Below, piece by piece: positions 7,904-64,000 of a DNA stretch of 64,000 bases. The notes beneath the pieces are model-generated. The model ran no database searches. It worked only from the letters and a program-made list of their open reading frames with translations, and had not been told where the DNA came from. Source of the stretch: Pristiophorus japonicus. Taxonomy: Eukaryota. Location of the stretch: NCBI RefSeq assembly GCF_044704955.1, contig NC_091999.1:24118001-24182000 (forward strand). The letters are read 5' to 3'. Each line of letters begins with the position of its first letter. Within the stretch, counting starts at the first letter, position 1. The translations under genes were made by a program, and so were the position numbers.

Positions 7904-8899
7904 CTGTGAGGATGCAATACTTTTTTTGGTTTGAAGTATATGTTTAGTTTTGTTAACAGCTATCAAGAGCTGTCTGCAATTTCTGCTTGATTTGGTATTG
8001 TTTCGTTAATATTTGTGTTGAGAAGATGTTGTGAATGTTGCAACAATGTCCAAGAGGTGGACTGGGATTGAGGGACAGGAGTGAAGGTGTGCAATAGTGC
8101 ACTGCACTTTGTACTACTTAGTGGCACTCTGTGTGTTAAAGGTTACTAATTTGCACGCGTGTTGTCCTGTGCCAATTACTCCAAGTTCTTTAATGTTAAG
8201 GATTGTTTTTCCTGCAGTATTTGCTAGTTCGCTGTCACGTGACCCACTGATTATGTCAGACAGAGCCTGGAAACTTGACCTAACAGCACTGCCGGATGGG
8301 CGGCCGCGTGGTCCTAATATCCACCTGAAAGAATTCTCTCATCTCGTTAAGATGAACAACTGAAAAGAGCACACACAAAGTTTTTCCTATATGTGTATGT
8401 GTATGTGTATGTGTGTGTGTACAAAACACATCATTCATTATGTGTGCATTACACAAAGATAAATGATTAGCTTCAACCATTATTTTTCAGCATTTTATTG
8501 TATTCAAAATGCAATTGCATGTCGTTTAATAACTTTAAAATTTATTGATAACCCATTGTCCTGTATGCTCTTGTTTAGAAAGTGATGTCACACTGACCAT
8601 TCCGTTACCAAGGTGACCATGTCTGTCGTTGTATTCAGTGGGAAAGGGGATTAAATCCCACCGAGTATAATGAGCAGCCCCCCGCTTTATTGTCTAGTGA
8701 TAACCTCACCGTCACACAGAAGTTCCTGAGATTTACCTCTATTGTGGATGATTAGTGTAAGTGTTGGTAAAAATGAAAATGCACCTGTACCTGGCATGAG
8801 GTTAATAAATCTGTAATTGTCTGATGTGTTGTTTCGCTCGTTACACCAGACCCCGTCGCAGTTTTTACTGCACCAATACACAGTCTCAGTTTATATGGT

Positions 8900-9940
8900 T
8901 GATGTGGTCCACTTCCAAAAAGCGTTGGATAAAGTGTCTTGATAATATCCTTGCCAGCAAAGTTGAAGCCCATAAAATAAAAAGAACAGTGGCAGCATGG
9001 ATATGAAATTGGCTGAGTGACAGGAATCAGAGAGTAGTGTTTTTATTTGGACTGGAGGAAGGTATACAGTGGTGTTCCGCAGCGGTTGGTAATTGGAACT
9101 CTGCTTATCTTGATTTATATTCATGATGTAGATGTTGGTGTACGGGGCACAATTTAAAATGTCATATCATTCATGGCTTGGAAGCATAGTGAACAGTGAG
9201 GAGGATAGTGCTGACTGCAAGAGGACATAGATATTCTGGTGGAATGGGTGGACACGTGGCAAATGAAACGGAGAAAATTTTCAAGTGATACATTTTTGTA
9301 GCATGAACGCGGAGAGGGAAAATAAACGAAAGAGTACAATTCTAAAAGGTGTGATGAACAGAGAAACCTGGGGGTATGTTTGCACAAATTATCGAAGATG
9401 GCAGGAAAGGTTGAGAAATTGTTTTAAAAGCATACGGAATCCTGGGCTTCATAAATAGAGGCATAGAATACAAAAGGACGGAAATTCTGGACACCATACT
9501 TTAGCAAGGATGTGAAGCTCTTCCAGAGGGGGCAGAAAAGATTGACGTGTTGTTCCAGGGATAAGACACTTCCGTTGTGTGGATAGATGGAGAAGCTGGG
9601 ATTGTTTGCCCTAGAGCAGAGAAGGTTGTGATCAGATTTGAGAGAGGTGTTCAGAATCAAAAGGGGTCGAGACAGAGTAGCTGGAGAGAAACTGTTCCCA
9701 TGAGGAAAACGTTTTTACACAGCTAGAGGTTAGGATCTGTAATGCACTGCCTGAAAGGGTGGCAGAGGATGTGTCATTCATGGCATTACAAAGGGAATTC
9801 GATAAGTACCTCAATTAAGAAAATTCACAGAGCTATGGGAAAGGGCGGGCGAGTGGACTAGCTGAAATACTCTTGCAGAGAGCGGCACGGGCTATATGGG
9901 CCAAATGGCCCTCTTCTGTGTTGTAACCATTCTATGATTC
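8900..9940 (+). mobile_element. Old CR1 LINE 3' portion shared by all unit copies
   Basis: Degenerate RT motifs (DFQKAFDKV, GVPQ..VLG, KFADDTK); paralogues at ~24720-25606, 35450-36585, 43720-44880, 58225-59385. Confidence 0.85.
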
Positions 9941-10009
9941 AATAATACACCAGGACCTGTCTCAGTTATTATTACACTAGACCCTATTCCTGTTTATATT
10001 ACTCCATTC

Positions 10010-10405
10010 ACCACATTAAATATTCGCTACCTCCACCACCGGCGCACTATGTCTGCAGTGAGCACTATCTACAAGATGCATTGCAGCAACTCGCCAAGAC
10101 TTCTTCGACAGCACTTTCCAAACCTACGACCTTTTCTAGCTAGAAGGACAAGAGCTCCGGGCTCATGGGAGCACCATCACCTCCACATAACCCTCCAAAT
10201 CACACACCATCTTAACTTGGAAAGTTATTACCGATCTTTCATAATCGCTGGGTCAAATTCGTGGAACACCCTCCCGTACACTGTGGGAGTACCTTCACCA
10301 CACGGGCTGCAGCGGTTCAAGGTGGCAGTTCACCACATGCTTTTCAAGGCCAATTAGGGATAGACAATCAATGTTGGCCTTGCCAGCGACACCTACACCC
10401 ACATG
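10010..10405 (+). mobile_element. 3' end of a second ancient non-LTR retrotransposon (CR1/L2 group)
   Basis: Encodes HHRR..AV..IYKMHCSNSPRLLRQH..RSFI..GS.SWN.LP..GLQRFK..HH.L, resembling an ORF2 C-terminus; paralogues ~26235-26635, 36650-37025, 44945-45345, 59450-59845. Confidence 0.7.
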
Positions 10406-11717
10406 CCAGCGACCAATAAACAATGTCCCAGTATCATTACTTACAGCACGAGCCACTACTTCAGTTATTATTGCACTAGAAACACTAATATTGTATTAGG
10501 CCCTGTTTCAGATATTACTGGAGTATGCCATGCCTTTGTTGCTATTACTGAAGACCCTGTCTCTGCTTATAGTAAACTAGACAAATACACTCTTTATATT
10601 ACACGAGCCCAATTCTTTCATAATAATAAACTAGACCATGCCTCTGTTTCTATTAAATTAGACCCTGTCTCAGTTAATTACTGCACTAAACTATGTAACT
10701 TACAGGGCAGGTACAGCATGTATCAGATACAGAGTAAAGCTGTCTCTACACAGTCCCATCAAAAACGCCCAGAGCTGGTAAAGCACGGGTTGGATAGTGT
10801 TTAAAGATCCCTCCACATTGTCCCATCAAAAACTGCCAGATAATTAAATGCACATGTCACATTTTGGATGAAAGCTCCTTCTGCGCTTCTGATCAATTTG
10901 GTTCGAGGCATATGATTAGGGCTCAAGGAAAACGTTTGTTGGATGTTGACATCTAGTTGTGGGGAAAAGCCAATTATCCATTCTTGAGAGACAAGACGGA
11001 AAGTGGAAATAGGAGAGGGAGAGGATACAGGAAGTCTCCACTGACACATTTGTGATGTCACTATATACGGTGATTAGAATCTTTCCCCTTTCTGTCCGTG
11101 GGGATCATCTTTACTTTATTCACCTATAATTTAGAGAAATGTATCAAAAAACAGTTGTTGCTGGAATCTGTTGAGAGATTTGCATTTCTCCCTATCTTTA
11201 TTTCTGTGCTGTGTTGGTGGGGAAACATTTATTGTCTTTCTGTCGCTCAATACTCTAATCTGAGACTGCTATTTCTGTGTTTATTTACATAAACGCCTCA
11301 CTGGTTCCGATGAAATATTCATGGCAGCAAAATAAGATAAACAGACTCACTTATTGATTCTTTTCAACTCACAACAAGGGCTTATTTTAAGAATATTGAT
11401 AGTTGGTACACAAAATTATACATATCTCGAACAATGACGTTGGCTTTCGTTTTGTTCAATTAGAACAGATGTGATTTATATGAAAGGAAATAAATTTAAA
11501 AATGAATAATTCAGTTCTGAAAGTTCTGCTGCCAAACTCAGTGGAACACCTCTGAACAGGCTGCTATTCCACTGGATCTCCATTTAGTGGAATACTTAAT
11601 CCATTGAAACTTAATACGTTAAAGCAGTGAGCAGAGGAGTGTCGGACAATCACAGTAATATCTGAGCTTTTCACATATCACAACATGTATTTTCCAATGT
11701 TGACATTTAGAAACACC

Positions 11718-12166
11718 TTACATTTATATAGCACCTTTAATGACCTCAAGTTGTCCCAAAGTGCCTTCCAGCCAATGAATTATTTCGGAAGTGTGGTCAC
11801 CGTTGTAATGTAGGAAACGTGGCAGCCAATTTGTGCACATCAAGATCCCATAAACAGCAATGGAATAATGATAAGATAATCAATTTTTCAGATGTTGGTT
11901 GAGGGATACATTTTTCTGCTGCAAACCCTGGTGAACTCCTCTGCTCTTTAAGATAGTGCCATGAGTCCTTTAAATCCACCTGAGTGGGAAGACGGGGCCT
12001 CAGTTTAATATCTGCCCCGAAAGACAGCACCTCTGATCATTCAGCACTCCCACAGTACTGACATCAGGCGTGTCGGTTTAGATTATGGGCTCAGATGTCT
12101 CAAGCGGGGTTTAGTATCTGTGTCTTTCTGAGTCAGAGGCGAGAGTGATCCCGCTGAGCCGAGGCT
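11718..12166 (-). mobile_element. tRNA-derived DeuSINE (SacSINE1-like)
   Basis: Minus strand has a tRNA-like head (GGCTCAG..CACTCTCGCCTCTGACTCAGAA) and Deu-domain core GTGCTGTCTTTCGGGGCAGATATTAAACTGAGGCCCCGTC..CTCAGGTGGA. Confidence 0.85.
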
Positions 12167-12537
12167 TGAACATATCACAGCTTGTATTTTAAAATGCTGC
12201 CATTCAGCTCATCATGTCTGAGGTTTAAGGTCTGAGCCCAGTCTTACACCGCTCCGTTTATCATCAGACGCGAGTTCTCTTATCTTGCCTGAGATGTCAT
12301 TACCACACTGGGATTTACACTGGGTCCGTAAACAAGTGTCAGTGGTTCCGCAGCGAGCATATGGAAGTGCTAGAGGCAGAAGGACTTATGGAACTTGAGA
12401 TTTACATTGTGTGAGCTGCAGCATCGGAGCAGCTGGAAGCTGGAACTGTTCTCCTTAGAGCCGAGCAAGTTCTGGGCCACTTAATAGAGGTGTTCGAAAT
12501 CATGGAAAGTTTTGATCGGGTAAATTGGAAGTTACAC

Positions 12538-12850
12538 CATCATTCCCTCCGACCATCCCTCCTATCCTCCACCCAACTCTCCTTCCCTCCATCCCTTCAT
12601 CCCTCCCTCTCTCTATCCCTTCCGCCCTCCATACATGCCTCCATCAATCGCTCCCTCCCTGGACCCACCTCTCCCTCCCTCCAGCCGGACTCCACCCGTC
12701 CAATACACTACATCTCCCTTGCTCCACTCCTCCCTCCCTCCATCGCTCCCTCGTGCAACCATTCCTACCTCCGTCCATCGCGCCACCCCTCCAACTCTCC
12801 ATCCATCCCTTGTTCCCTTCCTAACTCCCTCCCTCCCTCTGTCAGCCCAA
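12538..12850 (+). repeat. CT-rich (CCCT/CCAT) low-complexity tract
   Basis: Polypyrimidine tract; paralogues ~29047-29352, 47660-47932, 61930-62115. Confidence 0.9.
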
Positions 12851-15024
12851 ACCTGTCTTTTTTCCCCTTTGCAGTATTTCTGATTCCATTGATGAGGATT
12901 CCTCAGCTGGAATTTTCTGCAGCCAATTCCTTCACCGGGCTTTCATATATATTAACAAATGAGAGAGAGAGCAATGGCAATTATATATATATTTAACCTC
13001 CCCACCCCCACCTAAAAAAGCTGACAAGAATTAAAATGTTGACCTTTCCGGAGAGGGAGTTGGTTGGTGAACTGTCACAGGGTAGGAATTCTAGTTGGCA
13101 CAGTCAGGATATTTTTCCTGTTTATATAAAAAAGTAAGCGTAACAATTTTTAAAATTGTTTTAAGTCATCGTCGACTTTCAGCTGCTGTTTTTTCCTTCC
13201 CTTTCTCGCTGTTGTGGACAGGCCAGTGCCCGCCTGGAGCTCGCTGTCAGTGTGTATACGGGACGGTAGGACCTAAGCTCTCGCTGCGCGGACAGAGTTG
13301 GAGAAGCTGGGGCTGTTCTCCTTACAGCAGAGAAGGCTGAGGGGAGATTTACCAGATTAGTACCAAGGATGAATGATGAGAAACACTAGTTCTGCCCCAG
13401 CTGGAGTATTTTGTCCAATTCTGGGCACCACACTGTAGGAAGGACGTGAAGTCTTTCCAGAGGGTGCAGAATAACTTTACTGGAAACGCATCAGGTATGG
13501 GGGTTACAATTATGTGGAGAGACTTGGGAAGCTGGGGTTGCTCCCCTTAGAGCAGAGAAGGTTAAAAGAAGATTTAGTAGATTGGTACCTAGATGAGGGA
13601 TTTCAGTTAATGTGGAGAAACCGGAGAAGATGGTTTGTTCTTCGAGTAGAAAAGGTTAAGAGGAGATTTAGTAGATTAGTGTCTGGCATGTGATACTTCA
13701 GTTAAGTGGAGTTGAGGTCAGAGACCAGCCATGCTCTTATTAAAATGTGGAGCAGGCTTGAGGGGCCGAATGGCCTACTCTTGCTCCGAATTGTTATTTT
13801 CTTTTGTTCTTAAACAGATACAGTGTGTATAACTCAGACAGGGCCGAGTGTAATATAAATCAGGTCCTGAGGTATGTAAACAGAGAAAAGATCTGTTTCA
13901 GTAATAAGTTATATAGGGACTTATGTAACAAAAACAAAAATATGCTAAGATATAATTTAAATAAAATATGTTCTGGTGCAGAAATAACTGAGAATGGGTC
14001 ATGTGTAATATAAACATTGATATGGTCGAGTATAATATAAACTGAGGCTAGCTTGAGTACACTAATAAATTTGAAAGCGGAATCCTGCTTCAGTATACTG
14101 ATCTAGACAATGTCTCTGTTTAAAGTACAGTAGGACATGTCTTGGTTTTTGCAGCAATCGACCTTGTCTCTCTTTATATTACACTAGACCCTGTCTCTGT
14201 TTATATTACACTAGACCCTGTCTCTGTTTACATTACACTAGACAATGTCTCAGTTTATATTGCACTATACAATGTCTCTGTTTATATTACATTAGACAAT
14301 GTCGCTGTTTACATTACACTCGCCAATGTCTCCGTTAATATTACACTTGACAATGTCCCTGTCTATTTTGAATGAAGAGAGTACTCGAGTAATTTTGACT
14401 GTGGAATGAATGAAAGCTTGTTTTAAGAAGGTGTGAAGTTGCCTGCCTGTTTTAGCTCCACCCACTCTTTCCAAACAGAATGAAATGTTTGTTTTTAACC
14501 CTTCGTAGTGTTGTCCTGTATGTGGGAAGTTTAAGAAACTGTGAACCTTATGGTATTACATTTTAAGTTGGAAACGAAGGTGTGGATATAAGTTACGGAG
14601 CTAGGAAATGCACAAAGGATAGGTTTGTTGAGTAAAAGATAAAAATACATTGTCCCGGTAGTAAAGAAAAAAAAAGTTTGACACGCTCACTTACTTGTCG
14701 AAAGAAAACATGCAATTGGGTTGAAAGACATAAATTGAGTCTAGGAATGAGATAAAGAATGCCTTTCAAAACGCTCCCATTTTCCTTTGTGTAAAACCTT
14801 GACATGAAAGCTTCTAGCTCGGTAAAAAAAAAGAGTTTTAAATTTAGAAATACTTCAGGGATCAGGTCAAACCCCTGGGCGAGTGGTGAGCTATCTGTGA
14901 AGGTGTAAAAGGGACTTTTGAAAAAGGCTAAAATAGTAAGCTTTAGCAGTTTAGAAAAGAAAAAGATAAAGCAGGAAAAGGTCTCTGCCAGGGAACAGGA
15001 GGAGGGCAGAAAAGGGGGACTTGC

Positions 15025-17250
15025 CACAATACCCTATAAGACCTGAAGCTAGAACAGCGGTTGTAGAAATAGTAAAAGGGCTGGTGGAAAAGGGTATCTT
15101 AAAAGAAAGAGTTAGCAACACTAACTCCCCAAAAAGGCCCAGGTAGGGAAATCCCAGGTCCTGTACCTAGGGTACTGCCTCTCAAGGGGCTGAAAGAAAC
15201 GCCCTCGGATAGGAAAAAGGCTGTCAAGGACATGCCTAGACCAGAAACGGTAAGGGGGGTGAGGAAGGTACTGGGCCTCTTTAATTACAGCCGGAACTTT
15301 ATCCCTGATAAAAGGAGACCTATAGCCTATTACTCTACCAGCGAAAGCCCGCTGGTGACTGGGTTATCCAGATGCATATCCGCGCTAGATTGCGCAGTTT
15401 GGGCGCTAAAAATTAAGCGAGCTTGTGGTGATGACTGGAAACATCATTCTCCACAATTATCACACATTGGTAGAAATGTTAAACACAGGAAAACTGAGAA
15501 CCGTATCTAATATGAGACGGGCAAAGTGGGAAGCAGTCCTCTTAACACCCAACAAAGCGGTAACCATAATTAGTGATGTAGGAAACAACCCCACAGAAGG
15601 TATGATGGGTGAGGGGGAACCCCACTTTTGCGAAGAGGTATGTGAGGATATGGAAGAGGATACAATAAAAGACGCCCCCCTTCAAACCGCAGAACAAACC
15701 TTGTTTCTGGACGGCTCACGAAAATACGTAGAGGGACTACCTCGTACCGGATGGGCCGTAGTTAACCAGGATATAGAGACAATTGAATCAGGGCGAATTA
15801 ATGGGGGTCGTCAGTTCAAGTGGCAGAACTGGTAGCCCTCACCCGGGCACTGGAATTATCGGAAAATATGATTGTTAATATCTATACGGACAGTAGATAT
15901 GCATTCGGGGTAGTACACGATTATATGAAAGCATGGGGGAGAAGGCGTGTTTGCGATGGATAAAGAAATAACTTACTAAATACCAGTTGATATCAGCTGT
16001 GAAAAAGATATTGGTTTAATTGAAAAAAAAAGAATTTGAAGATGTAAAAAACACTCTCCATTGATAATGATTTTAAATTATTAAAATTAAGTCAGTGCTG
16101 CTGGGGCCCGAGACGAAGAGATAAGTATTGAGAAACTACACCAGGACACTTCTGAGGAGGAAATAGGTATGTGGACAAAGCAGGGCGCAACGCAAGGGAA
16201 GGATAACGTTTGGAGACGAAACGACAAGGTAATGGCGCCTGAATGCATACAGAATACCTTATTGGAGTTGCATCATGGCCTGTCTCAATCAGGATGAGAG
16301 GCCATGACCGGGAGTCTTGGAAGAGATTGGTGGTGGAAAGGGATGGGGAGAGATATCACCAAACATTGCCATCGATGCGTTACGTGTTCACAATATAATC
16401 CAGGCAGGCCCATTAAAATTAAAATGGGACACAAGCCCCGTCCTCGGGGGCCATAGGAACACATACAAATTGATTTCACAGGTCCTTTGCCCCCATCCCA
16501 TGGAAAAATATATTGCCTAGTGATTATAGATCAATTTACCCGGTGGGTAGAAGCTTTCCCCACACGTGATTGCACTGCCTCAACAGTGGTAAGGATATTG
16601 ACCGCGCAGGTGATTCCCCGATGGGGAGTGCCTCTTCAAATAGATTCCGACCAAGGCACCCACTTCACCGGAAAAATTGTAAAAACAATATGCCAGCTGA
16701 TGGGCATAAAACAAAAATTCCACATCCCCTACCACCCGCAGAGTTCTGGGATGGTAGAGCGCATGAACCATACCCTTAAGAACGCCCTGGCAAAGGCCAT
16801 GCAAACGTCAGGAAAAACGTGGACAGAAGTATTACCCATTATATTGATGAAATTAAGAGCCACGACAAACCGGACAACCGGATTAACCCCTTATGAACTA
16901 ATGACAGAAAGGGCGATGCAATTACCAGAGAACATCATAACAGGGTCGGCCGATGTAGGCCCATTAAAAGACAAAATAAAACGGTATGCTTTGGAACTAA
17001 GTACTCAATTAAAAGGGATGCATAAATTAGTTCGGGACAATCAGGAAGAAAGAGACGCGGAAGCAGAGCTTACAAAGCTCCCTTAAGTCCCGTAGGCAGG
17101 AAGTCACATTATGATAAGGGTCCTTCCGGGAAAAACCGGGGTTTGCCTCAAAAATGGAAAGGACCATATGTGGTTATAATCAGCAGGGACACTTGTGCCT
17201 GCATCGATGTTAAAGGGAACGGACAATGGAAGCATCGGACCCAGCTTAAG
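15025..17250 (+). pseudogene. pol: ERV pol remnant (RT fragments, RNase H, integrase)
   Basis: QYPI..GIL..NSP; KKAQ..VLYLGY; VRKVLGLFNYSRNFIP; RNase H LFLDGS / AELVALTRALE / NIYTDSRYAFG; integrase CxxC, IQIDF, IDSDQGTHF, YHPQSSGMVER, WKGPY; contains stops, frameshifts and deletions. Confidence 0.92.
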
Positions 17251-17384
17251 GTTTTTGAACCAGCCGTTTAGCACACATATTAGTTGTTGTTGTTTGTCTA
17301 TTTACAGATTGACAGCGAGAGATTCTTCAAGCAAGCCATATGGCCATTTTGCCTTTGACTATTTGTTAATTATAGAGTAATAAG

Positions 17385-18631
17385 ATGAAACTATATATTG
17401 CGATCGGTGCGATTATCATAGTTCGTGTTAGGTCCGGCCTGCTAGCTAGACCGAAACGAGAGTTACATGTGAATACCTTTTTGTACATGTCTTATGTTTA
17501 TGCACAAAATTAGAACTTTTCTAGTTGCTGGGTATGTTCGCACATCCCCATACATAGCAAAGGAGGCATCCCTTTGAGGTCAATCTCCCTTAACATTTCA
17601 GAAGTAGCAGAGTGGGTAATGCGACAAAACGGTACAGGGGAAGTAAATGATACTTGGAACCACAGTGGGAATAAAGAAACGTGGAGATCGGGGGGTTACC
17701 TTTTGGATGCATTGACAGATGGTACCAGCCGGAATATAATAGGTCGGTACGATCCCCGTTCCTGGTTTTGATCAACACCTCAGGAGTTGGAAGGCCCACC
17801 GCTGACATTTGTTTCACTAGAGACCTGACCGGTGAGGAAACAGGTTTTGTAGCAGGATGTACTTTAACCTCACCAGATGGAACATAATAGCCAGCGAAAC
17901 AACAAACCAAGGCTTCTTCGAAATAGAGGGTTTGAAGAATGAGACAAGTAGCCAGGACTGGGACCCTAAGATTAGGTGGCGACGGGGGCTGAGAGAGAGA
18001 TTGGGATCGAATCTAACGGCATACAATGGCACTTATTTTGTGTGCGGGCATAAGGCCTACCCCTGGTTGCCTCAGAACTGGAGGGGGTCTTGTTATTTGG
18101 GATATGTGGTCACTTTTGTCAGACGGGTAAGTACTTTAGCAGAAGTACAGACACCAGGTCGACTAAGACGAGATCTTACCGCGGTAGAGAGGCTATTTGG
18201 GGTCATGATGCTCCCATTCGGGATAGGACGCACCATGGATGAATTACATAACCTAGAGAGTGTACTGGAACAGATAGTTAACGGCACTGCTGAAGCAATG
18301 GAGGGCATAACGGCTGAGATGGTAGCCATATGCACAATGTGTCTTAATTGGAGCTGAATGTTGCACTTACATTCCTGATAATTCAGAAAACATAACCAAC
18401 CTCGCTGATCACATAAGAAGGGAGGTAAAGAAGTTATACATAACAGCAGGTGGATCTGGCTGGTTTGACTGACTGTTAGGGGGATCATGGGGGTTCTATC
18501 TTATGCATGGAGTAATTATTCTGGTTATATTAATAATTACTTGCTGTCTGATTATCGGGTGTTTTAATATCTGCTGTAAAGTTACGATGGCTCGACTGAT
18601 GCCAGTAGCCAGTATAATCGCTGAAGAATAA
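17385..18631 (+). pseudogene. env: ERV env remnant, gamma-type
   Basis: Acceptor-like gtctatttacag at ~17307; signal peptide MKLYIAIGAIIIV; SU CWVC (CXXC); furin site RLRR; fusion peptide; CVLIGAECC (CX6CC); hydrophobic TM anchor; disrupted by stops and frameshifts. Confidence 0.9.
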
Positions 18632-18844
18632 GCACATCTGAAGGAAATACCTGAAGACACCAAGAATGAAGAAACAGACGACAATGACACCGACCACTAT
18701 CTTTGAAGGGTAGCCTGGAGCTACAGGCAAGGTGGACATATGGAACATCAGGGAAGTAACATACCCCAAAGGACGAATATATGCAACTATCATTGTGGTC
18801 ATCTGAATTTCGTAAAAATCATCCAGGACCAAAAGGGGGAATAT

Positions 18845-19341
18845 TGTTGGAGCGGATTTTTGGACATATACTGGACTAGTATACGGGACCAAACATTTGT
18901 TTTATTTTCCCCTTTAAATGAATTTTGTAAGGGACAATACTGATGCATTATGCTCGATATTAAAAAAAACAGTTAGACTTTAAGGTATGCTGGCCTTGAG
19001 TTAATGCAGATAGGAAAGTGAGATAATGAACACTGGAGAGTTAAGTGCTGGATATGTTTGTTATACCGGTGTCAAAAGCCTGCACTTGTTTATACTGCCC
19101 TGTCACAACGCAGGATGGGTTATTTCAAAAGCTTAGCCTTCGATAGTCAAAGCTTTGTAGTGCTAAAGCATGTGTTGTAAAGTGACGTAATTTTTAAGAT
19201 AAAAGAACTTCACTACAGATATCAATTTGAGAAGATGGTTCAAAGACAGGGGTCTTTTACACTTCTCCCAAACCTTTGACTCCAATTTAATAAACCTCTC
19301 TTTATATATATTATGCAGTCTCAGAAAAAATTTCCACAACA
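18845..19341 (+). mobile_element. ERV 3' LTR (497 bp)
   Basis: Preceded by PPT AAAAGGGGGAA (18831); TGTTG...CAACA termini; AATAAA at 19289. Confidence 0.85.
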
Positions 19342-42948: not shown

Positions 42949-43019
42949 TCAAAGCACCGCCGGATGGGCGGCCACAGGGTCCCAATATCCACTGGAGTTC
43001 ATTCCCTTACGACGATCAA
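42949..43019 (-). other. Candidate terminal coding exon in block X (copy 4)
   Basis: Same acceptor; DRRKGMNSSGYWDPVAAHPAVL*, 6 nt shorter but in frame. Confidence 0.25.
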
Positions 43020-43037
43020 CTGAAAAGAGAACACACA

Positions 43038-50656: not shown

Positions 50657-50657
<1 letters not shown>

Positions 50658-50722
<65 letters not shown>

Positions 50723-50752
50723 ATAAGTGTGTATATTTATGTTTGTGTGTGT
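50658..50752. repeat. (TG)n microsatellite inside the hAT element
   Basis: Direct reading. Confidence 0.95.
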
Positions 50753-51297
50753 AAGTGGGTCTGTACCAAGTGCGTAGCCAGGGGCGTTTGGGTCATGGCC
50801 ACACCCAATCCAAAATAATAGTATTATATTGTTCATGTGAAAAGCTTACAATGGCATTATTATATTGGATGAAAGAAATGAAAGACGAGTCTAACACATA
50901 TGCAGTAATACGTGTAGTTTTTATAATAAAATGTCAAAAACTATTCAATTACATTTAACCACATTCTAATTTCTATTTTGTTATTTTTGTTTCTTGATCT
51001 GCAGCTTGATGTGTGGCCGGGACTGGCGACATCTTTGATGCTTTGACCTGATACAGCGCCAATTAGTGGCTCCTTTGATGTCGGCGACATCCAATTGACC
51101 TGGCATCGCCACCCTAGCGGTTACTTTGATTTCTGAGAGTTGGCTTTTAGCATATTTTGATCATAGTCAAAATCAAAACTTCCTGTTCAACTCAAGGTTC
51201 GTTTCTGTCTGGACTCTCTGGAGTTTGGAAATTGGAAGTCTCAGTTCGTGTCTGCCTGGAGTTTAGATCAATCAGCCGAATGAAGTTTGTCCCCTCA

Positions 51298-53179: not shown

Positions 53180-53737
53180 AATACTAATTAATCTGTAATT
53201 AATGTGAGGAATTATTATTATAGTTTATTATTGTATTGTTTCATTCAGAATAAAAAATAATTAATAACTTACATGTGTACAATGTTGTATATCTCATATA
53301 CTGTGACTAATAAAATGTTTTTTAAATTTTCTGAAACTTGATTTTTTAACCTTTTAATCCCTTCAAGTGTGCACCAAAAATTCTAGTATACGAAATTGTG
53401 CTGCGAATACAAGAAGTTTGAGAACCACTGGTTTAGATAGAGTAAATAAATAGGAATTGATTCAGAAGTAAGGTGATTGACTAAGAACCAGAGGCGATAT
53501 TTGGATGAAATTTTTCATGTAACCACTGGTTAGGATTTGGGTTGTACTGCCTGATAGGGTGGTAGATATAGAATCAATAGTTGCCCTCAATATAAAATTG
53601 TACAAATACTTGAATGAGGAAAAAAATCCAGAGATATAGGGAAAGTGCGCTGGAGTGGGACTAACTGGATTGCTCTTCAAGAGAGCCGGCACAGATTCTT
53701 TGGGCTGAATGGCCACCTTCTGTGCCATACTAATCTA

Positions 53738-55640
53738 TGAATGACCATAACATGGTTGAATTTCAAATTCAGTTGGAGGGTGAGAGAGTTGGTTCTCAAA
53801 GCAGTATCCAAATCTTATATAAAGGGGACTACAAATGTCTGAGGGCAGTGGTTGCTAAAGCGTACTGGGAAAATAGATAAAAGTATGGGACGGTTGATGA
53901 GCAGTGGCAGACATTTAACGAGATATTTCATAACTCGCAACAAAAATATATACTAATGAGAAGGCAAGACTGTAAAAATAGGGATAACCATCCGTGGCTA
54001 AGTAACGAAATAAGAGAAGGTGTCAAATTGGAAACAAAGGCATACAATGTGGCCAAGACTAGTGGGAGCCGAGAGGATTGGGAAACTTTATAAAGCCAGC
54101 AAAGAACAACTAAACAAATTATAAAGAGAGAGAAGACAGATTAGGAAAATAAACCAGCACGAAATATAAAAAAAGATGGTAAGACTTTCTACATGTACAT
54201 AACGCAAAAGAGATGCTAAACTAAATGTTGGTCAACAAGAGGATCTGACTGGGGAATTAATAATCGAGAACAGGGAAATGGCAGACGCATTGAACAAATA
54301 TTATGTATCGGTCATCACAGTAGCAGACACTAAAAACATCTAAATAGTGGAAAATCAAAGTACTATATGGAGGGAGGAAATTATTACAATTATTATCACT
54401 AATGAAGTAATACTCGGTAAAATAATGGGATTTAAGGCAGACAATTCCCCAGGACTTGGTGGCTTACATCCAAAGGTCCTGAAAGAAGTGGCTGCAGAGA
54501 TGGTGATGCATTGGTTGTAATCTACCAACATTCCTTTGTTTCTGGGGCGGTCCCAGCGGATTGGAAAACTGCAAATTTAGTGCTCCTATTTAAAAAAACA
54601 GGCAGACAGAAGGCAAGCAAATATAGACTAGTGAGCCGAACATCTGTCATTGGGAAAATGCTGGAGTCCATTCAGAAAGCAGTAGCGGGACATTTGGAAA
54701 ATCATAATTCAATCAAGCACAGTCAGCATGGTTTCGTGAACGGGAAATCAAGTTTGACAAATTTGGTGGAGATCTTTGAGGATGTAACGAGCAGGTTGGA
54801 TTAGGGTGATCCATTGGATGTAGTGTATTTGGATTTCCGGAAGGCATTCGATAAGATGCCACATAAAAGGTTACTGAACGATAAACGTTCACGGGGTTGG
54901 GGTTAATATATGGATAGAGGATTGGCTAACTAACAGATCGGAGAGTCGGGATAAATTGGTCAATTTCCGTTTGGCAAACAGTAATTCGTGGTGTGACGCA
55001 GGGATCAGGGTTGGAACCTCAACTATTACAATCGATAATAATAAATTGGATGAAGGCCTGCAGTGTAACATAGCCAATTTGCAAATGTTAGAAAGATAGG
55101 GATAGGTGGGAAAGAAAATTGTGAGGAGGACACAAAATATCTGCAAAGGGATATGGACTGACTAAGTTCATGGGCAAAACTGTGCAGGATATTGATGATG
55201 CCACACCGAGAGTACTGCGTCCAGTTTTGGTCTCTGTATTTAAGAAAGGATATATCTGCATTGGAGGCATTTCAGCGAAGATTGATTCCAGAGATGAGGG
55301 GGTTGACTTATGAAGATAGGTTGAGTAGGTTGGGCCTATACACATTGGAATTCAGAAGATGAGAGGTGATCTTATTGAAACTTATAAGATAATAAGGGTG
55401 TTCTACAAGATGGATGCAGGGAGGATATTTCCACTCATAGGGGAAAATAAAACTAGGGGACATAGTCTCAGAATAAGGAGCCACCCATTTAAAACTGAGA
55501 TGAGGGGAATTTCTTCGCTTAGAGTGTTGTAATATGTGGAATTCTCAGCCCCAGAGAGTTGTGGAGGCTAAGTCATTGAATATATTTAAGGTGGAGATAG
55601 AAATATCTTTGAACAATAAGAGAATAAACGGTTATGGGGA
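53738..55640 (+). mobile_element. CR1 LINE ORF2 remnant, paralogue of 30392-32400 (tail resumes at ~56420-56530)
   Basis: Same junctions; 3' tail split by the tRNA-LINE insertion. Confidence 0.9.
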
Positions 55641-56328
55641 TAGAAACATAGAAACATAGAAAATAGGTGCAGGAGTAGGCCATTCGACCCTTCTAGCCTG
55701 CACCGCCATTCAATGAGTTCATGGCTGAACATGGAACTTCAGTACCCCATTCCTGCTTTCTCGCCAGACCCCTTGATCCCCCGAGTAGTAAGGACTTCAT
55801 TTAACTCCTTTTTGAATATATTTATTTAATTGGCCTCAACAACTTTCTGTGGTAGAGAATTCCACAGGTTCACCACTCTCTGGGTGAAGAGTTTCTCCTC
55901 ATCTCGGTCCTAAATGGCTTACCCCTTATCCTTAGACTGTGACCCCTGGTTCTGGACTTACCCAACATTGGGAACATTCTTCCTGCATCTAACATGTCTG
56001 AACCCATCAGATTTTGAAACGTTTCTATGAGGTTCCCTCTCATTCTTCTGAACTGCAGTGAATACAAGCCCAGTTGATCCAGTCTTTCTTGATAGGTCAG
56101 TCCCGCCATCCCGGGAATCAGTCTGGTGAACCTTCGCTGCACTCCCTCAATAGCAAGAATGTCCTTCCTCAAGTTAGGAGATCAAAACTGTACACAATAC
56201 TCCAGGTGTGGCCTCACCAAGGCCCTGCACAAATGTAGCAACACCTCCCTGCCCCTGTACTCAAATCCCCTCGCGATTAAGGCCAACATGCCATTTGCTT
56301 TCTTAACTGCCTGCTGTACCTGCATGCC
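55641..56328 (-). mobile_element. Young 5'-truncated CR1 LINE fused to a tRNA
   Basis: ORF 55870-56172 RKDILAIEGVQRRFTRLIPGM..; (TTTCTATG)n tail at 55641-55661. Confidence 0.9.
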
Positions 56329-56338
56329 AAAAAACATC

Positions 56339-56411
56339 TGCCAAAACCCAGGATTGAACAAGGGACCTTTAGATTTTCAGTCTAACGCTCTTCCAACTGT
56401 GCTATTTCGGC
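56339..56411 (-). pseudogene. tRNA-Phe(GAA) pseudogene / retrocopy
   Basis: GCCGAAATAGCACAGTTGGAAGAGCGTTAGACTGAAAATCTAAAGGTCCCTTGTTCAATCCTGGGTTTTGGCA, 73 nt; 7 substitutions against the canonical vertebrate tRNA-Phe as I recall it, including D-stem and T-stem mismatches; no CCA; T6 four nt downstream. Confidence 0.92.
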
Positions 56412-56554
56412 TGGCATTTCGGTGCATAGAGAGGTGGAGCTGAGTCCATAATCAAATCAGCCATGATAGTAAATTGCAGAGCAGGATCGAGGGACTCGGT
56501 GGCCTACTCCTGCTCCTATTGCTTATGTTATTTTGTTTTTGTTACTATCTTTGT

Positions 56555-56930: not shown

Positions 56931-57537
56931 TGACTTCACAAGACAATGTCTGTTTGTGTCAACCGGGGCTCAGTATTTCTCACTTTTGCCTTCGTATCAG
57001 ATAGTTTTGTGATAAACTCCCACTCCAAGGATTATATATCTATTTATTGTACAACAGTCATGGTTGTCAGTTATTTCTGCATTCGACCATGCGTCTGTTA
57101 GATAGACAGAAGATATATAGACAGTGGATAGATATTAATATAAATAAAGATATATATGCGTGAGGGTGGGAGGATGCAATACTTTTTTCGTTGGAACATA
57201 CGTTTAATTTCGTTACTAGCTAGTAAGAGTTGTGTGCAAAGTAATTTAGATCTGTTATTGCATCGGTAATATTTGTGTTGCGAGGATGGGCTGATTCTTG
57301 TAACAATCTCCCAGAGATGGACTAGGATTGAGGGACAGCACTGAAGGTGAGCAATCCACTGCACTTTGAACTACTTAGTGGCACTCTGTGTGTTAAAGGT
57401 TACTAATTCACACTTGTCTTGTACTGTGCTCATTTCCCCCAGTTATTTAATGTTAAGGAGTGTTTTTCTTGCAATATTTTCGATTGCGATTTTACGTGAC
57501 CCACTGGTTGTGTAAGACAGAGCCTGGAACCGTGACC

Positions 57538-57614
57538 TCACAGCACCGCCGTATCGGCGACTGTAGGATCCGAATATCCACCGAATACTTCTCTCCTATG
57601 GTTTAGACGATCAA
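57538..57614 (-). other. Candidate terminal coding exon in block X (copy 5)
   Basis: CTCTTTTTAG acceptor; DRLNHRREVFGGYSDPTVADTAVL*. Confidence 0.25.
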
Positions 57615-60600
57615 CTAAAAAGAGCACACACAAAGTGTTTGCTATATATGTCTGTGTGTATGTGTGTGTCTGTGTGTGTTTGTGTGTGTATGTATGTACG
57701 TGTGTATGTGTGTATGTGCAAATGTATGTGTGTGTGTCCAAATCATAATATGTGCAATTGCATTCCACAAAGATAAATAATTATCTTCAACCATTATTTT
57801 TCAGCATTTTATTTTAATCAACATCTAATTGCAGATCGTTTAATACCATTTAAACATATTGATACCATGTTGTCTTGCATGCTCTGATGCAAAGTGATGT
57901 CACGCTGACCTTGCTGCTATTAAGGTGACGATGTCTGTTCGCAGTATTCAGTGGGAAAGGGCATTAAATCACACCGAGGAAAATAAGCAGCCAGCCACCA
58001 GTCTCTGCAATTTACTGTGCAGTGATCACCTCACCATCACACAGAATCCCCTGATATACACCTGCAGCGTGTGATGATTACTGCAAATGTTGTAAAACAT
58101 GAAACTGCACCTGCACCTGATTGAGATTAACAAATCTGTAATTAGCTTACACATTGTTTCTATCATTATACCAGACCCTGTCGCAGTTTTTACGGTAATA
58201 GACCAAGTCTCAGTTTTTATGCCGTTGATGTGGTTGACTTCCAAAAGGTGTTTGATAAAGTGCGCTTACAATATCTTTGCCAGCAAAATGGAATCCCACA
58301 GAATAAAAGGGATAGTGGCAGCATGGATATGAAATTGAATGAGTGGCAGGAATCAGAGAGCAATGTTTTTTTTTGTACTGGAGAAAGGTGTACAGTGGTG
58401 TTCTGCAGCAGTTGGTGCTAGGAACACTGCTTTTCTTGATTTTTATTCATGACTTACATTTAGGTGTAAGGGCACAATTTCAAAAGTTGCAGATGACTCA
58501 TAGCTTGGTCGTATAGTGAACAGTGAGGAGGATAGTATGAGACGTCAAGAGGACATAGACATGCTGGTGGAATAGACGGACACGTGGCAAATAAAAAACA
58601 GAAAATTGTGAAGTGATACTTTTTGATAGGAAGAATGAGGACAGGCAAAATATACTAAAGGATACAATTCTAAAAGGTGTGATGAACACAGAGACCCGGG
58701 GATATATGTGCACAAATCATTGAATGTGGCAGGACAGGTTCAGAAAGTGTTTTGAAAAGCATACGTCATCCTGGGCTTCATAAATAGAGCCATAGAATAC
58801 AAAAGCAAGGAAATTATGACGAACCTGTTTAAAACACTGATAAGGCCTCAAATGAAGTTTTGTGTCCAATTCTGGGCACCGCGCTTTAGTAAGGATATGA
58901 AGGCCTTAGCGAGGGTGCAAAAAGATTTACGTGTGGTTCCAGGGATAAGGTACTTCGGTTATGTGGAGAGACAGGAGAAGCTGGGGTTCTTATCCTTAGA
59001 GCAGAGAAGGGTGAGATGAGATTTGATCGAGGTGTTCATAATTATAAGGGATCTAGACAGAGAAGCTGGAGAAAAACCTTTCCCATTGGCGGAAGGGTTG
59101 AGAAAAGAGGACACAGATTTAAGACAGAAGATCCAAAGGCGACATTAGGGAAATATTTTTATGCAGCGATTGTTTAGAATCTGAAATGCACTGCCTAAAA
59201 GGTTGGTGGGGGCAGATTCAATCATGGCATTACAAAGGGAATTGGATAATTACTTGAAGGAAGAAAATTCACAGGGCTACCGGAAAGGGCGGGGGAGTGG
59301 ACTAGCTGAAATGCTCTTGCAGAGAGCGGCACGGACTATATGGGTCGAAAGTTCCTCTTCTGTGCTGTAACCATTCTATGATTGTATAATACACCAGAGC
59401 CTGTCTCAGTTGTTACTGAACGAGACAATGTTCCAGTTTACATAACCCCACACAGCACGTTAAATATTCACTCCATCCACCACCGGCGCACCATGTCTGC
59501 AGTGATTACTATCCACAAGATGCATTGTAGCAACTCGGCTTGACATCTTCGACAGCACTTTCCAAACCTACGACCTCTTCCAACTAGAAGGGCAAGGACA
59601 GCAGGGTCATAGGAATACCATCATCTCAACGTACCCGTCCAAATCACACACCATTATGTCTTTGAAATGTATTACCGTTCCTTCATAGTCACTGGGTTCA
59701 ATTCGTGGAACCCCTCCCTAACACTGTGCAAGTACCTTCACCACACGGTCTGCAGCGGATCAAGGTGGCAGCTCACCACCTGCTTCTCAAGGCCAATTAT
59801 GGATAGACCATCAATGATGGCCTTGCCAGCGACACCCACGTTTCAGTGACCAATAAAACAATATCCCTGTATAGAACTACTAGTATTGTACTCGGCGCTG
59901 TCTCAGATATTACTGGAATATGCCATGCCTTTGTTCCTATTATAAAAGACTCTGTATCTGTTTATATTAAACTACACTAGGACATTGCTTATATTGCACT
60001 AGCCCGATCTTTTCACATTACTGTATTAAACCATGTCTCTGTTAATATTAGACTAGACCCTGTCACCGTTATCACTGCATTAGATTATGTCCTTGTTTAT
60101 ATTAAGCTAGACGCTGTCTCAGTTATTACTGCCCTAGACGCTGTAACGCCCAGGGCAGGTACAGCATCTGTCAGATACAGGGTAAACTCCCGCTATGCTG
60201 TCCCATCACACACTGCCAGGGCAGGTACAGCACAGTTTAGGCACAGACTAATGCTCCCTCTACAAAGTCCCATCAAACAATCGCAGGGCAGATACAGCAC
60301 GGGTTAGATATAGCGTAAAGATCTACACTGTCCCATCATATACTCCCATATCATTTAATGCACAGTTTACATTTGGATTAAAACTCCCTCTGTGCACTCC
60401 GATCAATTTGTTCCGAGGCATATCCTTATGGCTGAGGGTAATCTTTTGTTAGCTGTTGACATTTATTTGTGGGGAAATGTCAATGAACAATTCTTGAGAG
60501 ACGGAACAGAAAATGGAAATACGAGAATGAGACGAGACATGTGATGTTGCTGTTCATGCTGACGAGAAGGAACCTTTCCCCATTCTCTCCGTGGGTATCA

Positions 60601-61169
60601 TTTTTACTTGATTCGAATATAATTTAGTGAAATGTACCAAAAAACAATTGTTACTGGAATCTGTTGACACATTTCCATTTCTGTCCATCTTTATTTCGAT
60701 GCTGTGTTGGTGGGGAAACATTTGTTGTGTCTCTGTCGCTCAATACTCTAATCTGGGGCTTCTATTTCTGTGTTTATTTACAGAAACGCCTCACTGGTTG
60801 CCATGACGTGTTCATGGCAGCATAATCAGAACAACAGAGTCGCTTATTGATTAGACTCAACTCACAACAATGGCTTATTTTAAGCATATTGACAGTGGGT
60901 ACACAGAAGTAGAAATATTTCGAACAGTGACGTTGGCTTCAGTTTTGTTCAATTGCAACAGATGTGATTTATATCAAAGGGAATAAATATTAACATTAAT
61001 AATTCAGTTCTGAATGTTCTGCTGCTTAATCAATGGAACATCTATGAACAGGTTGGTATTCCACTGGATCTCCATTTAATGGAAGATTTAACCAACTGAA
61101 ATTAACCAAGTTAAACCAGTGACCAGAGGAGTGTTCGTCAATTACAGTAATATCTAAGCTGGTCACATA

Positions 61170-61574
61170 AAATGATTTACACACAATGAATTACTATCCA
61201 AGTGTGGTCACCTTTGTAATGTAGGAAACGTGGCTGTCAATTGGTGCACAGCAAGATCCCGCAAACAGCAATGAAATAATGATAAGATAATCTATTTTTC
61301 AAATGTTGCTTGAGGGATAAGTATTTGCGCTGTAAACCCTGGAGAACTCCTCTGCTCTCTAAAATAGTGCCATGAGTCCTTTATATCCAACTGAGTGGGA
61401 AGATGTGCCTCAGTTTAATATCTGCCCTGAATGACGGCACCTCTGACCGTGCAGCACTCCCTCAGTACTGGTACCGGTCGAGTCAGCGTAGATTATGGAT
61501 CAGGTTTCTGGAGTGGAATTTAGTATCTGTGACCTTCTGAGTCAGAGGCGAGAACGATCCCACTGGACCGAGGC
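61170..61574 (-). mobile_element. DeuSINE, copy 5 paralogue
   Basis: Colinear with copy 1; 3' tail removed by a small deletion. Confidence 0.85.
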
Positions 61575-63084
61575 TTGAACATATCACAGCTTGTATTTTA
61601 AAATGCTGCCATTCAACTCATCGTGTCTGAAGTTCAGAGCCTGCGCCCAATCTTATACCGCTCCATTTATTATCAGGAGCCAGTTCTCTTTTCTTGCCTG
61701 GGATGTCATTCCCACACTGGGATTTACACTGGTGTCAGCGATTCAGCGGGGAACATCTGGAAGTGCCCGAAGCAGAAGGACTCACCGAACCTAAGTTTTA
61801 CACTGTGTGAGCTGCACCATCAGAGCAGCTGGAATCAGGGACTGTTCTCCTGAGAGCCGAGCAGGTTATGGGCCATGTAATAGCGGTGTTCAAAATCATG
61901 AAGAGTTTAGGTCGGGTAAATTGGCAGATACTCCATCACTCCCTCCCATCATCCCTCCCACCCTTCACCAGTATCTCCTTCTCTCCCTCCCTTCATTCCT
62001 CCCTCCAGAATTGCACCCTCCCTATACCCATCCCTCCCTCCCGCTGTCCATCGCTCCAACCCAGCTTTACTCCACCCCGCCCTTGCTCCACACCTTCCAC
62101 CCTCCATCCCAGCCTCAGCCCAAACGTTTCTTATTTTTCCCTTTGCAGTGTTTCTGCTTCCATCGATGGGGATTCCTCAGCTGGGATTTTCTGCACCCAA
62201 TTCCTTCACCGGGCTTTCAAATATATTAACAAATAAGAGAGAGAGCGATGCTTAATCTGTGCATTTGACCCCACCACCCCCCACCTTCTCCTAAAAAACT
62301 GACGTGAAATAACATGTTGACCTTTCCGGAGAGGGAGTTGGCTGGGGAACTGGCGCGGGGTAGAAGTTCAAGTTGGGGCAGTCAGGATATTTTACCATTT
62401 TTTAAACAAAAAAGTGCATTTTTGCAAGACAACGATGACTTTCAGCTGTTCTGTTTTCCTCCCCCTTCTCCCTGTTGAGGACGGACCAGTTCCCGCCCAG
62501 AGCTCACTGCCATTGTGTGTACGGGTCGGTAGGATTCAAGTTCTCGCCAGGCGGACAGACTTTGAGAAGCTGGGCCTGTTCTCCTTAGAGCAGGGAAGGG
62601 TGAGGGGAGATATAGCAGATTAGTACCAGGGATGAATGACTAGAAACACTAGTTTGGCCCCAGCTGGAGTATTGTATCCAATTTTGGGCACCACACTTTA
62701 GGAAGGACGTGAAGACTTTCGAGAGGGTACCGAAGAGATTGATTGGAAACGCATCAGGGATGGGCGATTACAAATATGTGGACAGACTGGAGAAGCCAGT
62801 GCTGTTCTCCTTGGAGCAGAAATGGTTAAGAGGAGATTTAGTAGATTGGTACCTGCATGAGGGATTTCATTTAATGTGGAGAGACCGCAGAAGATGGGAT
62901 TTTTCTCCTTAGAGCAGAAATGGTTAAGAGGAGATGTAGTAGATTATCATCAGGCATGAGAGACTTCAGTTAATGTTGAGTTGCGGTCGAAGGCCAGCCA
63001 TGCTCTTCCTGAATGGCGGAGCAGACTTGAGGGGCCGAATGGCCTACTCTTGCTCCTCATTGTTATGTCCTTATTTTCTTAAAC

Positions 63085-64000
63085 AGAGTCTGTGTGTACT
63101 GTAGTATAACTCAGACAGAACCTAGTGTAATATAAACCAGGTCATGAATTATATAAACAGAGAAATATCTGTTTCAGTAATAATTGATATTGGGACTTAT
63201 GTAATATAAACAGAGAAATGGTCAGATATAATTTAACTAAAATATGTTCTGGTGCAGGAATAACTGGGACTGGGTCATGTGTAATATAAACAGGGACATG
63301 GTCCTGTATAATATAAACTGAGACCAGGTAAAGTACATTAATAACTTAGACAGTTATGCCCTGCCTCAGTTATACTGATCTGGAGAATGCCTCTGTTAAA
63401 AGTACAGCAGGACATGTTTTAGTTTTTGCTGTAATAGAACTTGTCTCTGTTTATATTACAGTAGGTCCAGTCTCTGTTTATATTACAGTAGACTATGTCT
63501 CAGTTTCTATTATACTGGACAATATCTCTGTTTATATTGCACTAGAAAATGTCTCTGGTTATATTACACTAGACACTGTCTCAGTTTATTTACACGAGAT
63601 AATGTCTCAGTTTATATTACAGTATACAATCTCTCTGTTTATATTACACGAGACAATGTGCATGTTTACATTGCCCGAGACAATGTTTCTGTTTATTTTA
63701 CACAAGACAATGTCCCTGTTTATATTACACAAGACGATGTCTCAGTTATTACTGCACCAGACCATAGCGCAGGAATATTAGACTAGGTCCTATCTCCATC
63801 AGTACTGTACTAGACTCTTTTTCTGATAATATTGCACAATGTCCTGCCTCATTCATTATTGCACAAGACCTGGTCACTAGTTATTTTACACTATGTTCTG
63901 CATCTGTTCATATTACACTGGGCCATGTGTCAGTTATTACCGCACTAAGCCATGTCTCTGTTTATATTACACAAGGCTCTCTCTGTTAGTATTGCATGAG
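63085..64000. repeat. Inverted then forward 27-bp minisatellite arrays
   Basis: Minus-orientation units to ~63340 and plus-orientation units from ~63355; same arrangement at 13820-14369. Confidence 0.85.

What the first reader, a model, noticed from the sequence alone, without database searches (positions are those of the whole stretch)
7904..64000. Five-copy 8-15 kb macrosatellite directly upstream of a shark IgH VH promoter
Seen: an ordered set of non-TE unique blocks (X, Y, Z, W, V) recurs at ~7.9, 23.1, 34.2, 42.5 and 57.1 kb, with substantial substitution divergence and copy-specific TE insertions, so these are old real duplications rather than assembly error. Known: cartilaginous fish IgH genes form many separate V-D-D-J-C clusters with long spacers. 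Inference: the spacer is a structured, amplified unit. It may be an unannotated gene/lncRNA family or a regulatory module co-amplified with Ig clusters.
Basis: partly seen in the sequence, partly recalled or inferred. Interest (0 to 1): 0.7.

Follow-up and report, generated by a model that had tools for sequence, protein, structure and literature searches.

The report
Fossil tandem duplication beside shark IgM
Upstream of a shark IgM antibody gene lies an old seven-copy tandem duplication of a roughly 10-kb stretch that also sits upstream of many other IgM clusters in this genome; it decays almost as fast as the transposon debris inside it, so it is most likely inert spacer, with a weak hint of an enhancer in one block.

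Summary
Five ordered copies (7.9, 23.2, 34.2, 42.6, 57.2 kb), 13-17% diverged, continue as two more beyond the window, upstream of an IgM V-D-J-C cluster on the minus strand. The array is part of the IgM cluster duplicon: 65 of 77 exact block-Z motif hits lie upstream of a listed V, chance 6%. It is not a homogenised macrosatellite: units group by array position across clusters. An older IgM cluster carries one single-copy unit, the likely ancestral state. The unique blocks are not dispersed TEs, but show no conserved ORF, codon periodicity, Pfam or Rfam match and evolve at 0.93 (0.86-1.02) of co-duplicated TE sequence; the true core promoter gives 0.57 of its flank. Best reading: neutral flank, tandemly duplicated once and carried along. 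Open lead: block Z is slightly slower (0.88) and holds an Ig octamer kept in 27 of 35 copies, not independently replicated. Transcription and chromatin were not testable.

The parts
1..200 (-). IgM-type VH exon (runs off the window's left edge)
   Evidence: Open frame, Pfam V-set E=1.2e-4; J and C exons in L001/L002
320..560 (-). Leader exon (ATG at 368), 5' UTR and core promoter (456-560) without octamer
   Evidence: Sequence; core promoter diverges 0.106 against 0.186 in distal flank
7284..7907 (+). 27-bp minisatellite preceding copy 1; similar arrays precede copies 2, 4 and 5 (22482-23004, 41133-42316, 56548-56944)
7908..13810 (+). Copy 1 core: X 7908-8389, Y 8443-8860, CR1-like pieces 8890-9935, LINE end 10004-10430, 27/67-bp repeats, Z 10840-11690, SINE-like 11700-12160, W 12160-12535, V 12842-13290, CR1-like 13290-13810
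   Evidence: TE family names are recalled, dispersal shown
11178..11185 (+). Immunoglobulin octamer ATTTGCAT in block Z; also at 27374, 38181, 46308; changed in copy 5
14370..19340 (+). Retrovirus-like insertion in copy 1, broken frames; limits approximate, paired LTRs not confirmed
   Evidence: Pfam rve E=2.8e-20 at 16457-17083; single copy in 264 kb; LTR test blank
23162..30050 (+). Copy 2 core, with LINE pieces inserted in Y (24062-24546) and Z (27570-27932)
34243..39000 (+). Copy 3 core (X, Y, Z, part of SINE; W and V absent)
42579..48675 (+). Copy 4 core
48682..56540 (.). Insertions after copy 4: LINE pieces (RVT_1 at 49380-50072), a 3.3-kb single-copy insert (50.1-53.4 kb), tRNA-Phe-like sequence at 56339-56411
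57170..64000 (+). Copy 5 core and trailing 27-bp minisatellite; copies 6 and 7 follow beyond the window

Best explanation
This is a seven-copy tandem duplication of a roughly 10-kb stretch upstream of an IgM cluster, shared in the same order by other IgM clusters, and it is most likely a neutral passenger: a once single-copy flank that was probably multiplied by unequal crossing-over at the 27-bp minisatellites bounding each unit and then copied along with the whole V-D-J-C cluster. Shown: the copies, their order, the link to IgM V genes, positional orthology across clusters, near-neutral rate, one older single-copy unit at another cluster. Inferred: that the single-copy unit is the ancestral state (outgroup tree, junction at the end of Y), that the units arose in a short burst (star-like tree base), that the minisatellite drove the crossovers (units start right after it), and that the blocks have no function now.
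For: Units from different clusters group by position in the array with support 0.97-1.0 over short basal branches (37 of 47 extracted copies). Rate of unique blocks 0.966 against 1.035 for co-duplicated TE sequence; ratio 0.93, interval 0.86-1.02; 1.01 without the largest CR1 piece. The core promoter, as a positive control by a pairwise measure, diverges at 0.57 of its flank over 100 bp; the slowest of 112 overlapping 40-bp windows in the blocks are 0.55-0.64 and isolated. No codon periodicity above TE background, best LRT 8.1 of 198 against 7.2 of 158; stops and frameshifts in the two best exon-like stretches; 0 of 95 stop-free stretches reach a Pfam cut-off; no Rfam family above its gathering score inside a block. 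Units are lost, truncated and re-duplicated among clusters (4.6-kb triplication at C23:16.18 Mb). The cluster at C23:37.31 Mb has one unit, 68-78% identical, in the 30 kb examined; 6 other V-bearing loci had no array in 20-30 kb. That old unit continues past Y into sequence that the array copies have lost at a 27-bp-like junction. X-Y also persists in zinc-finger gene arrays on C9 and C20, away from Ig genes.
Against: The unique/TE ratio is below 1 in 95% of bootstrap samples; block Z alone is 0.88 (0.81-0.96). Slow 8-mers are about twice as dense in unique blocks as in TE sequence (24 in 2377 against 12 in 2070 columns). The octamer in Z evolves at 0.35-0.45 of average. 33 of 39 intact-type C23 V genes have a Z or W motif upstream against 0 of 22 of the broken-V group, though these are few independent lineages. 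Units of the second V group (C90) are closer to the window's units (0.15-0.17) than the two clusters' introns are (0.21), which simple co-duplication does not explain without later exchange or local rate differences.
Confidence: 0.72

Rival explanations
1. Block Z is a distal B-cell enhancer module (octamer plus E-box-like sites) that was multiplied with the unit; copies are redundant, so constraint per copy is weak, and the array would supply the octamer that shark IgH promoters lack.
For: Octamer ATTTGCAT at 11178 kept in 27 of 35 copies, scale 0.35, LRT 7.5, reached by 1.3% of unique and 0.2% of TE 8-mers; Z/TE rate 0.88; Z has 12 of the 24 slow-8-mer peaks; Z-motif hits are confined to C23 and few other contigs, most with Ig genes; the old single unit carries a 7-of-8 variant. 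Shark IgH genes lack the upstream octamer (PMC2435157, passage); the catfish IgH enhancer core uses variant octamers and a muE5 site (PMC1800861, start of abstract).
Against: Six motif classes were scanned; octamers occur 0.6 per 10 kb in control DNA. 23 further Z copies add only LRT 2.3, reached by 11% of unique 8-mers. The octamer is changed in whole clades (copies 5, 6 and most promoter-nearest 'copy 0' units). Slow columns do not cluster more than shuffled ones (P 0.10-0.29). Several V genes have no array nearby.
Confidence: 0.15
2. The unit is, or was, a multi-exon non-coding or short-ORF gene family transcribed away from the V gene or as part of a zinc-finger gene 3' end.
For: Splice-like acceptor and donor strings are visible in X, Z and V (by eye). 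In 11 of 20 non-Ig loci examined X-Y runs through about 0.8 kb into a C2H2 zinc-finger terminal exon on the opposite strand.
Against: No ORF conservation, periodicity, Pfam or Rfam support; near-neutral rate. The X-Y module appears fused to the zinc-finger flank at one point, since 6 other loci break there and continue into W/SINE or Z, and an unrelated ZNF flank matches only beyond it.
Confidence: 0.08
3. The blocks are unrecognised dispersed transposons.
For: High copy number: 629 first-look candidates for X, 204 exact X-motif hits; X occurs on C2, C9, C11, C20 as well.
Against: Hits are clumped on C23, a few Ig-bearing contigs and two ZNF arrays; blocks keep a fixed order with shared TE insertions; 0 of 20 macrochromosome control loci hold X, Y, Z, W or V, while the TE pieces hit 2-17 of 20.
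Confidence: 0.03

Closest known systems
Shark IgM miniclusters (V-D-D-J-Cmu), spaced at least 120 kb apart (PMC2435157, passages; PMC12227049, first 10,000 characters and passages)
   Same: The window is the 5' flank of such a cluster; more than 100 places match the last C exon, most on C23.
   Different: The passages read say nothing on what fills the spacer; here the upstream 90 kb is an ordered seven-unit array shared among clusters.
Tandem segmental duplications in birth-and-death gene clusters (recalled, e.g. mammalian IGHV and KIR flanks)
   Same: Mosaic unit of unique DNA and TE pieces, divergent evolution after duplication, positional orthology, gains and losses of units.
   Different: The repeated unit holds no gene; it is nested inside a larger duplicon that is the Ig cluster itself.
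Macrosatellites such as D4Z4, DXZ4, RS447 (recalled)
   Same: Head-to-tail units of kilobase size.
   Different: Units here are 13-17% diverged and not homogenised, are not GC/CpG-rich (CpG o/e 0.48 against 0.32-0.57 in controls) and carry no ORF.
Octamer/E-box IgH enhancers such as catfish Emu3' (PMC1800861, start of abstract only)
   Same: Block Z holds a consensus octamer; E-box strings occur in the unit.
   Different: Position upstream of V, one octamer per unit, weak constraint, no activity shown.

Membership tests
Macrosatellite (features recalled) | Head-to-tail array of kilobase units | tested here: met
   7 units, same strand, 8-15 kb spacing
Macrosatellite (features recalled) | Neighbouring units nearly identical through concerted evolution | tested here: not met
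   Non-CpG distance 0.13-0.17 within the array; units group by position across clusters
Macrosatellite (features recalled) | Copy number varies between individuals | not testable with these tools
   One assembly only; copy number does vary among paralogous clusters
Tandem segmental duplication | Mosaic of unique and TE sequence duplicated together in fixed order | tested here: met
Tandem segmental duplication, neutral | Unique parts diverge at the rate of co-duplicated TE parts | tested here: inconclusive
   Ratio 0.93 (0.86-1.02); Z alone 0.88 (0.81-0.96); 1.01 without the largest CR1 piece
Dispersed transposable element | Interspersed across chromosomes as independent insertions | tested here: not met
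   Motif hits clumped; 0 of 20 control loci
Protein-coding gene family | Conserved open frame with faster third positions; domain match | tested here: not met
lncRNA or structured RNA family | Match to a curated RNA family | tested here: not met
   Only a tRNA at 56339-56411, outside the blocks, passes its gathering score
lncRNA or structured RNA family | Transcription | not testable with these tools
   No reads could be laid on the stretch
Ig enhancer | Octamer and E-box motifs present | tested here: met
   Octamer in 4 of 5 window copies and 27 of 35 aligned copies
Ig enhancer | Motifs under clear constraint | tested here: inconclusive
   Scale 0.45, LRT 9.7 overall, 2.3 from new copies; no motif-like clustering
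Ig enhancer | B-cell-specific activity or open chromatin | not testable with these tools
   Needs ATAC-seq or reporter assay
Shark IgM minicluster (neighbouring gene) | V, J and C1-set exons within about 15 kb, secretory tail of mu type | tested here: met
   D segments seen by eye only; three C exons found by the pattern used, a fourth not looked for; isotype name partly from recall

The most novel reading that the evidence does not exclude
Block Z is a repeated distal enhancer of shark IgM clusters: each unit brings an octamer that the octamer-less VH promoter lacks, and the number of intact Z copies sets how often a given cluster is switched on for rearrangement, which would make the open question of how one of many shark IgH clusters is chosen directly testable.
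Probability: 0.13. Interest if true: 0.75.

Novelty: new member of a known kind. Interest (0 to 1): 0.33.

Why it matters
As neutral spacer it is ordinary in kind but useful: seven position-specific units with dated insertions give a phylogeny of the IgM clusters that does not depend on the selected V and C exons, and show exchange of flank DNA between IgM clusters and zinc-finger arrays. No description was found in eight searches of the held library, but the key nurse shark BAC paper (Lee et al. 2008, PMC2590587) is not held, so absence from print is not shown. If Z were an enhancer it would be a first candidate cis-element for shark IgH activation. The side finding of a transversion-rich, CpG-flat substitution spectrum over the IgM region may interest specialists more than the array.

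Tried and rejected
Sequencing runs: no RNA holder listed for window 7908-13800, so no reads were laid. Rfam and ARAGORN: nothing inside the blocks. tblastn with the V exon found no V remnant in the units; tblastn with a zinc-finger protein found none in the window. Exon-like readings in block V break by stops and frameshifts. Germline leakage of hypermutation as cause of the odd spectrum: no WRC or WA excess and no gradient from V. One pattern search used a mistyped motif and is uninformative. Paired LTRs of the insert at 14.4-19.3 kb were not found with the ranges tried. Earlier scan notes: nothing returned. Two papers were not held. Protein homology, structure and prokaryote/virus collection searches were not run, as no credible ORF exists.
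Full report
OBSERVATION. After masking tandem repeats, self-BLAST shows the blocks X, Y, Z, W, V in fixed order at 7.9, 23.2, 34.2, 42.6 and 57.2 kb. With 60 kb of left and 140 kb of right flank, two more copies appear at window-equivalent 67.2 and 78.8 kb and an inverted X at 93.6 kb. Non-CpG distance among the seven is 0.13-0.17. Copies differ by insertions: a retrovirus-like element in copy 1 (integrase), LINE pieces in Y and Z of copy 2, and about 8 kb of inserts after copy 4. The two N runs (34700-34973, 43038-43273) fall between X and Y. Copies 1, 2, 4 and 5 start just after a 27-bp minisatellite.

THE NEIGHBOUR. A V exon lies at 1-200 on the minus strand, leader ATG at 368. A J segment and three C1-set exons follow within 14 kb; the last ends in a secretory tail and its best solved relatives are mostly IgM constant regions. 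The window is G000:C23:24118001-24182000. 150 of 838 candidates for that C exon were scored and all matched, most on C23.

LINK TO IG CLUSTERS. Exact motifs from W, Z and X give 126, 77 and 204 hits (only the first 100 listed for W and X). Against 93 of the 126 V rows (duplicate partial rows and the weakest matches dropped), 65 of 77 Z hits and 76 of 100 W hits lie within 110 kb upstream of a V in matching orientation; chance on C23 is 6.2%; 1 Z hit lies downstream. 33 of 39 intact-type C23 V genes have such a motif upstream, 0 of 22 of a broken-V group. Read directly, 9 clusters including this one have multi-unit arrays, among them two of a second V group about 55% identical (C90, C687). Seven other V-bearing loci have none in the 20-30 kb examined: one has a single old unit, two only a degenerate Z (one with part of W), four no block at all (class not determined for three). 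The array is common but not universal.

NOT A DISPERSED TE, NOT A HOMOGENISED MACROSATELLITE. X, Y, Z, W, V hit 0 of 20 macrochromosome control loci; the TE pieces hit 2-17 of 20. A tree of 37 of 47 extracted units (10 short ones dropped) groups copy 1 with copy 1, copy 2 with copy 2 and so on across clusters, over very short basal branches. The array was thus laid down early and then diverged, with later local gains and losses.

ORIGIN. The cluster at C23:37.31 Mb has one unit, X-Y-(67-bp repeat)-Z-W, 68-78% identical to copy 1. It runs on past the end of Y into sequence that array copies lack; in these, Y ends at a junction with a 27-bp-like repeat. Rooted on it, array-type X-Y copies form one group (bootstrap 71) beside a group from other chromosomes (98) (7 near-identical C9 rows left out). 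Those other copies lie mostly in C2H2 zinc-finger arrays on C9 and C20: of 20 non-Ig loci examined, 11 run from X-Y through 0.8 kb into a zinc-finger exon on the opposite strand, 5 continue into inverted W-SINE, 1 into inverted Z, 3 are shorter. Flank DNA has thus moved between Ig and ZNF arrays; the direction is unresolved. Inference: a single-copy IgM 5' flank was expanded in tandem, probably through the minisatellite, and copied with the cluster.

FUNCTION TESTS. On the 37-unit tree (length 2.15, CpG columns masked) unique blocks evolve at 0.966 and co-duplicated TE pieces at 1.035; ratio 0.93, interval 0.86-1.02, below 1 in 95% of resamples; Z alone 0.88 (0.81-0.96); 1.01 when the largest CR1 piece is omitted. 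By base class the gap is 4-6%. For scale, the core promoter diverges 0.106 against 0.186 in distal flank across deep cluster pairs (a different, pairwise measure). No codon periodicity above TE background, 0 of 95 stop-free stretches at a Pfam cut-off (8 weak hits, E 0.009-0.057, all different families), no Rfam family in a block.

THE LEAD AGAINST MY READING. Of six B-cell motif classes scanned, one octamer (11178, block Z) is kept in 27 of 35 copies, scale 0.35, LRT 7.5. With 23 more Z copies the scale is 0.45, LRT 9.7 overall but only 2.3 from the new copies, which 11% of unique 8-mers reach. It is changed in whole clades, including most promoter-nearest degenerate units. Slow 8-mers are twice as dense in unique blocks as in TE pieces (P at most 0.025 against resampled TE columns) but do not cluster more than shuffled unique columns (P 0.10-0.29). 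Octamers occur 0.6 per 10 kb in control DNA. [quoted passage not shown] Also unexplained: units of the second V group are closer to this array (0.15-0.17) than the two clusters' introns are (0.21); later exchange or local rate differences (a C3 unit evolves at 0.53 of its C90 sister, 174 against 326 changes) could both do this.

SIDE FINDING. Paralog differences across the IgM region have transition/transversion ratios of 0.79-0.90, even along the window (0.80-0.96), against 1.55-1.85 for TE pairs on large chromosomes and 0.99-1.68 for six ZNF-array duplicate pairs. CpG transitions run about 2 times the non-CpG C-to-T rate here against about 9 times in ZNF duplicates; there is no WRC or WA excess. 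Adjacent substitutions are 13% against 7.5% expected. Controls are imperfect: TE pairs include master-lineage change, ZNF triplets are few and related, and direct three-way contrasts of the ratio were mostly not significant. Fast-evolving, immune-gene-rich chromosomes are reported in bamboo shark (PMC7677710, passages); the spectrum was not seen in what I read.

LITERATURE SEEN. PMC2435157: passages and reference list. PMC12227049: first 10,000 characters and passages. PMC7677710 and PMC13043367: passages. PMC1800861: search listing and start of abstract. No supplements were read; table S1 of PMC12227049 may bear on cluster layout. Lee et al. 2008 was not available. Eight searches returned no description of such an array. 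TE family names, macrosatellite features and the D-segment reading rest on recall or on reading by eye.

VERDICT. Real, previously undescribed as far as these searches reach, ordinary in kind: a fossil tandem duplication in the IgM cluster flank, most likely neutral (0.72), with a weak enhancer candidate in block Z (0.15). Interest 0.33.

Noticed in passing
window 400-64000 against cluster at G000:C23:24.58 Mb (L041-L050): Transversion-rich, CpG-flat substitution spectrum over the IgM region: ts/tv 0.79-0.90 against 1.55-1.85 in TE pairs on large chromosomes; CpG transitions about 2 times against about 9 times background in ZNF duplicates; no hypermutation-hotspot bias. Could reflect low germline methylation or raised error-prone repair; controls imperfect.
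   Followed up: partly
L139 (G000:C3:330.56 Mb): A unit about 120 kb from an orphan IgM V near the end of a large chromosome has changed about half as much as its sister on C90 (174 against 326, p 1e-11).
   Followed up: partly
L111, L118, L121-L135 (C9:202-225 Mb, C20:77.5-79.6 Mb): X-Y, and in some loci inverted W-SINE or Z, are embedded in duplicated C2H2 zinc-finger gene arrays; ZNF exons also flank this IgM cluster at -35 to -53 kb and +128 to +197 kb.
   Followed up: partly
window 14370-19340: Broken retrovirus-like insertion with integrase domain inside a 27-bp minisatellite; by spacing present in the cluster at 24.58 Mb and absent at 15.28 Mb, so a marker for cluster history.
   Followed up: no
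window 50100-53400: 3.3-kb insert, single copy in 264 kb, with a 146-residue stretch (52298-52735) resembling a hAT-type transposase from recall; no Pfam hit.
   Followed up: partly
window 56339-56411: tRNA-Phe(GAA)-like sequence on the minus strand next to a LINE end (Rfam 55.8 bits, ARAGORN); probably a retroposed copy.
   Followed up: no
window 3865-7907 and throughout: The 27-bp and 67-bp minisatellites are abundant in Ig and ZNF regions but hit 0 of 20 macrochromosome control loci.
   Followed up: no
window 5940-7907: Other clusters hold a degenerate 'copy 0' (Z and part of W, about 75% identical) 6-10 kb upstream of V; it is deleted in this cluster.
   Followed up: partly
L052-L053 (G000:C23:16.18 Mb): Recent 4.6-kb triplication of W-X-Y inside an array, showing that unit number still changes.
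   Followed up: no
G000:C23:13-67 Mb: More than 100 matches to the last IgM C exon and 22 broken V copies of a few related types that lack the array.
   Followed up: partly
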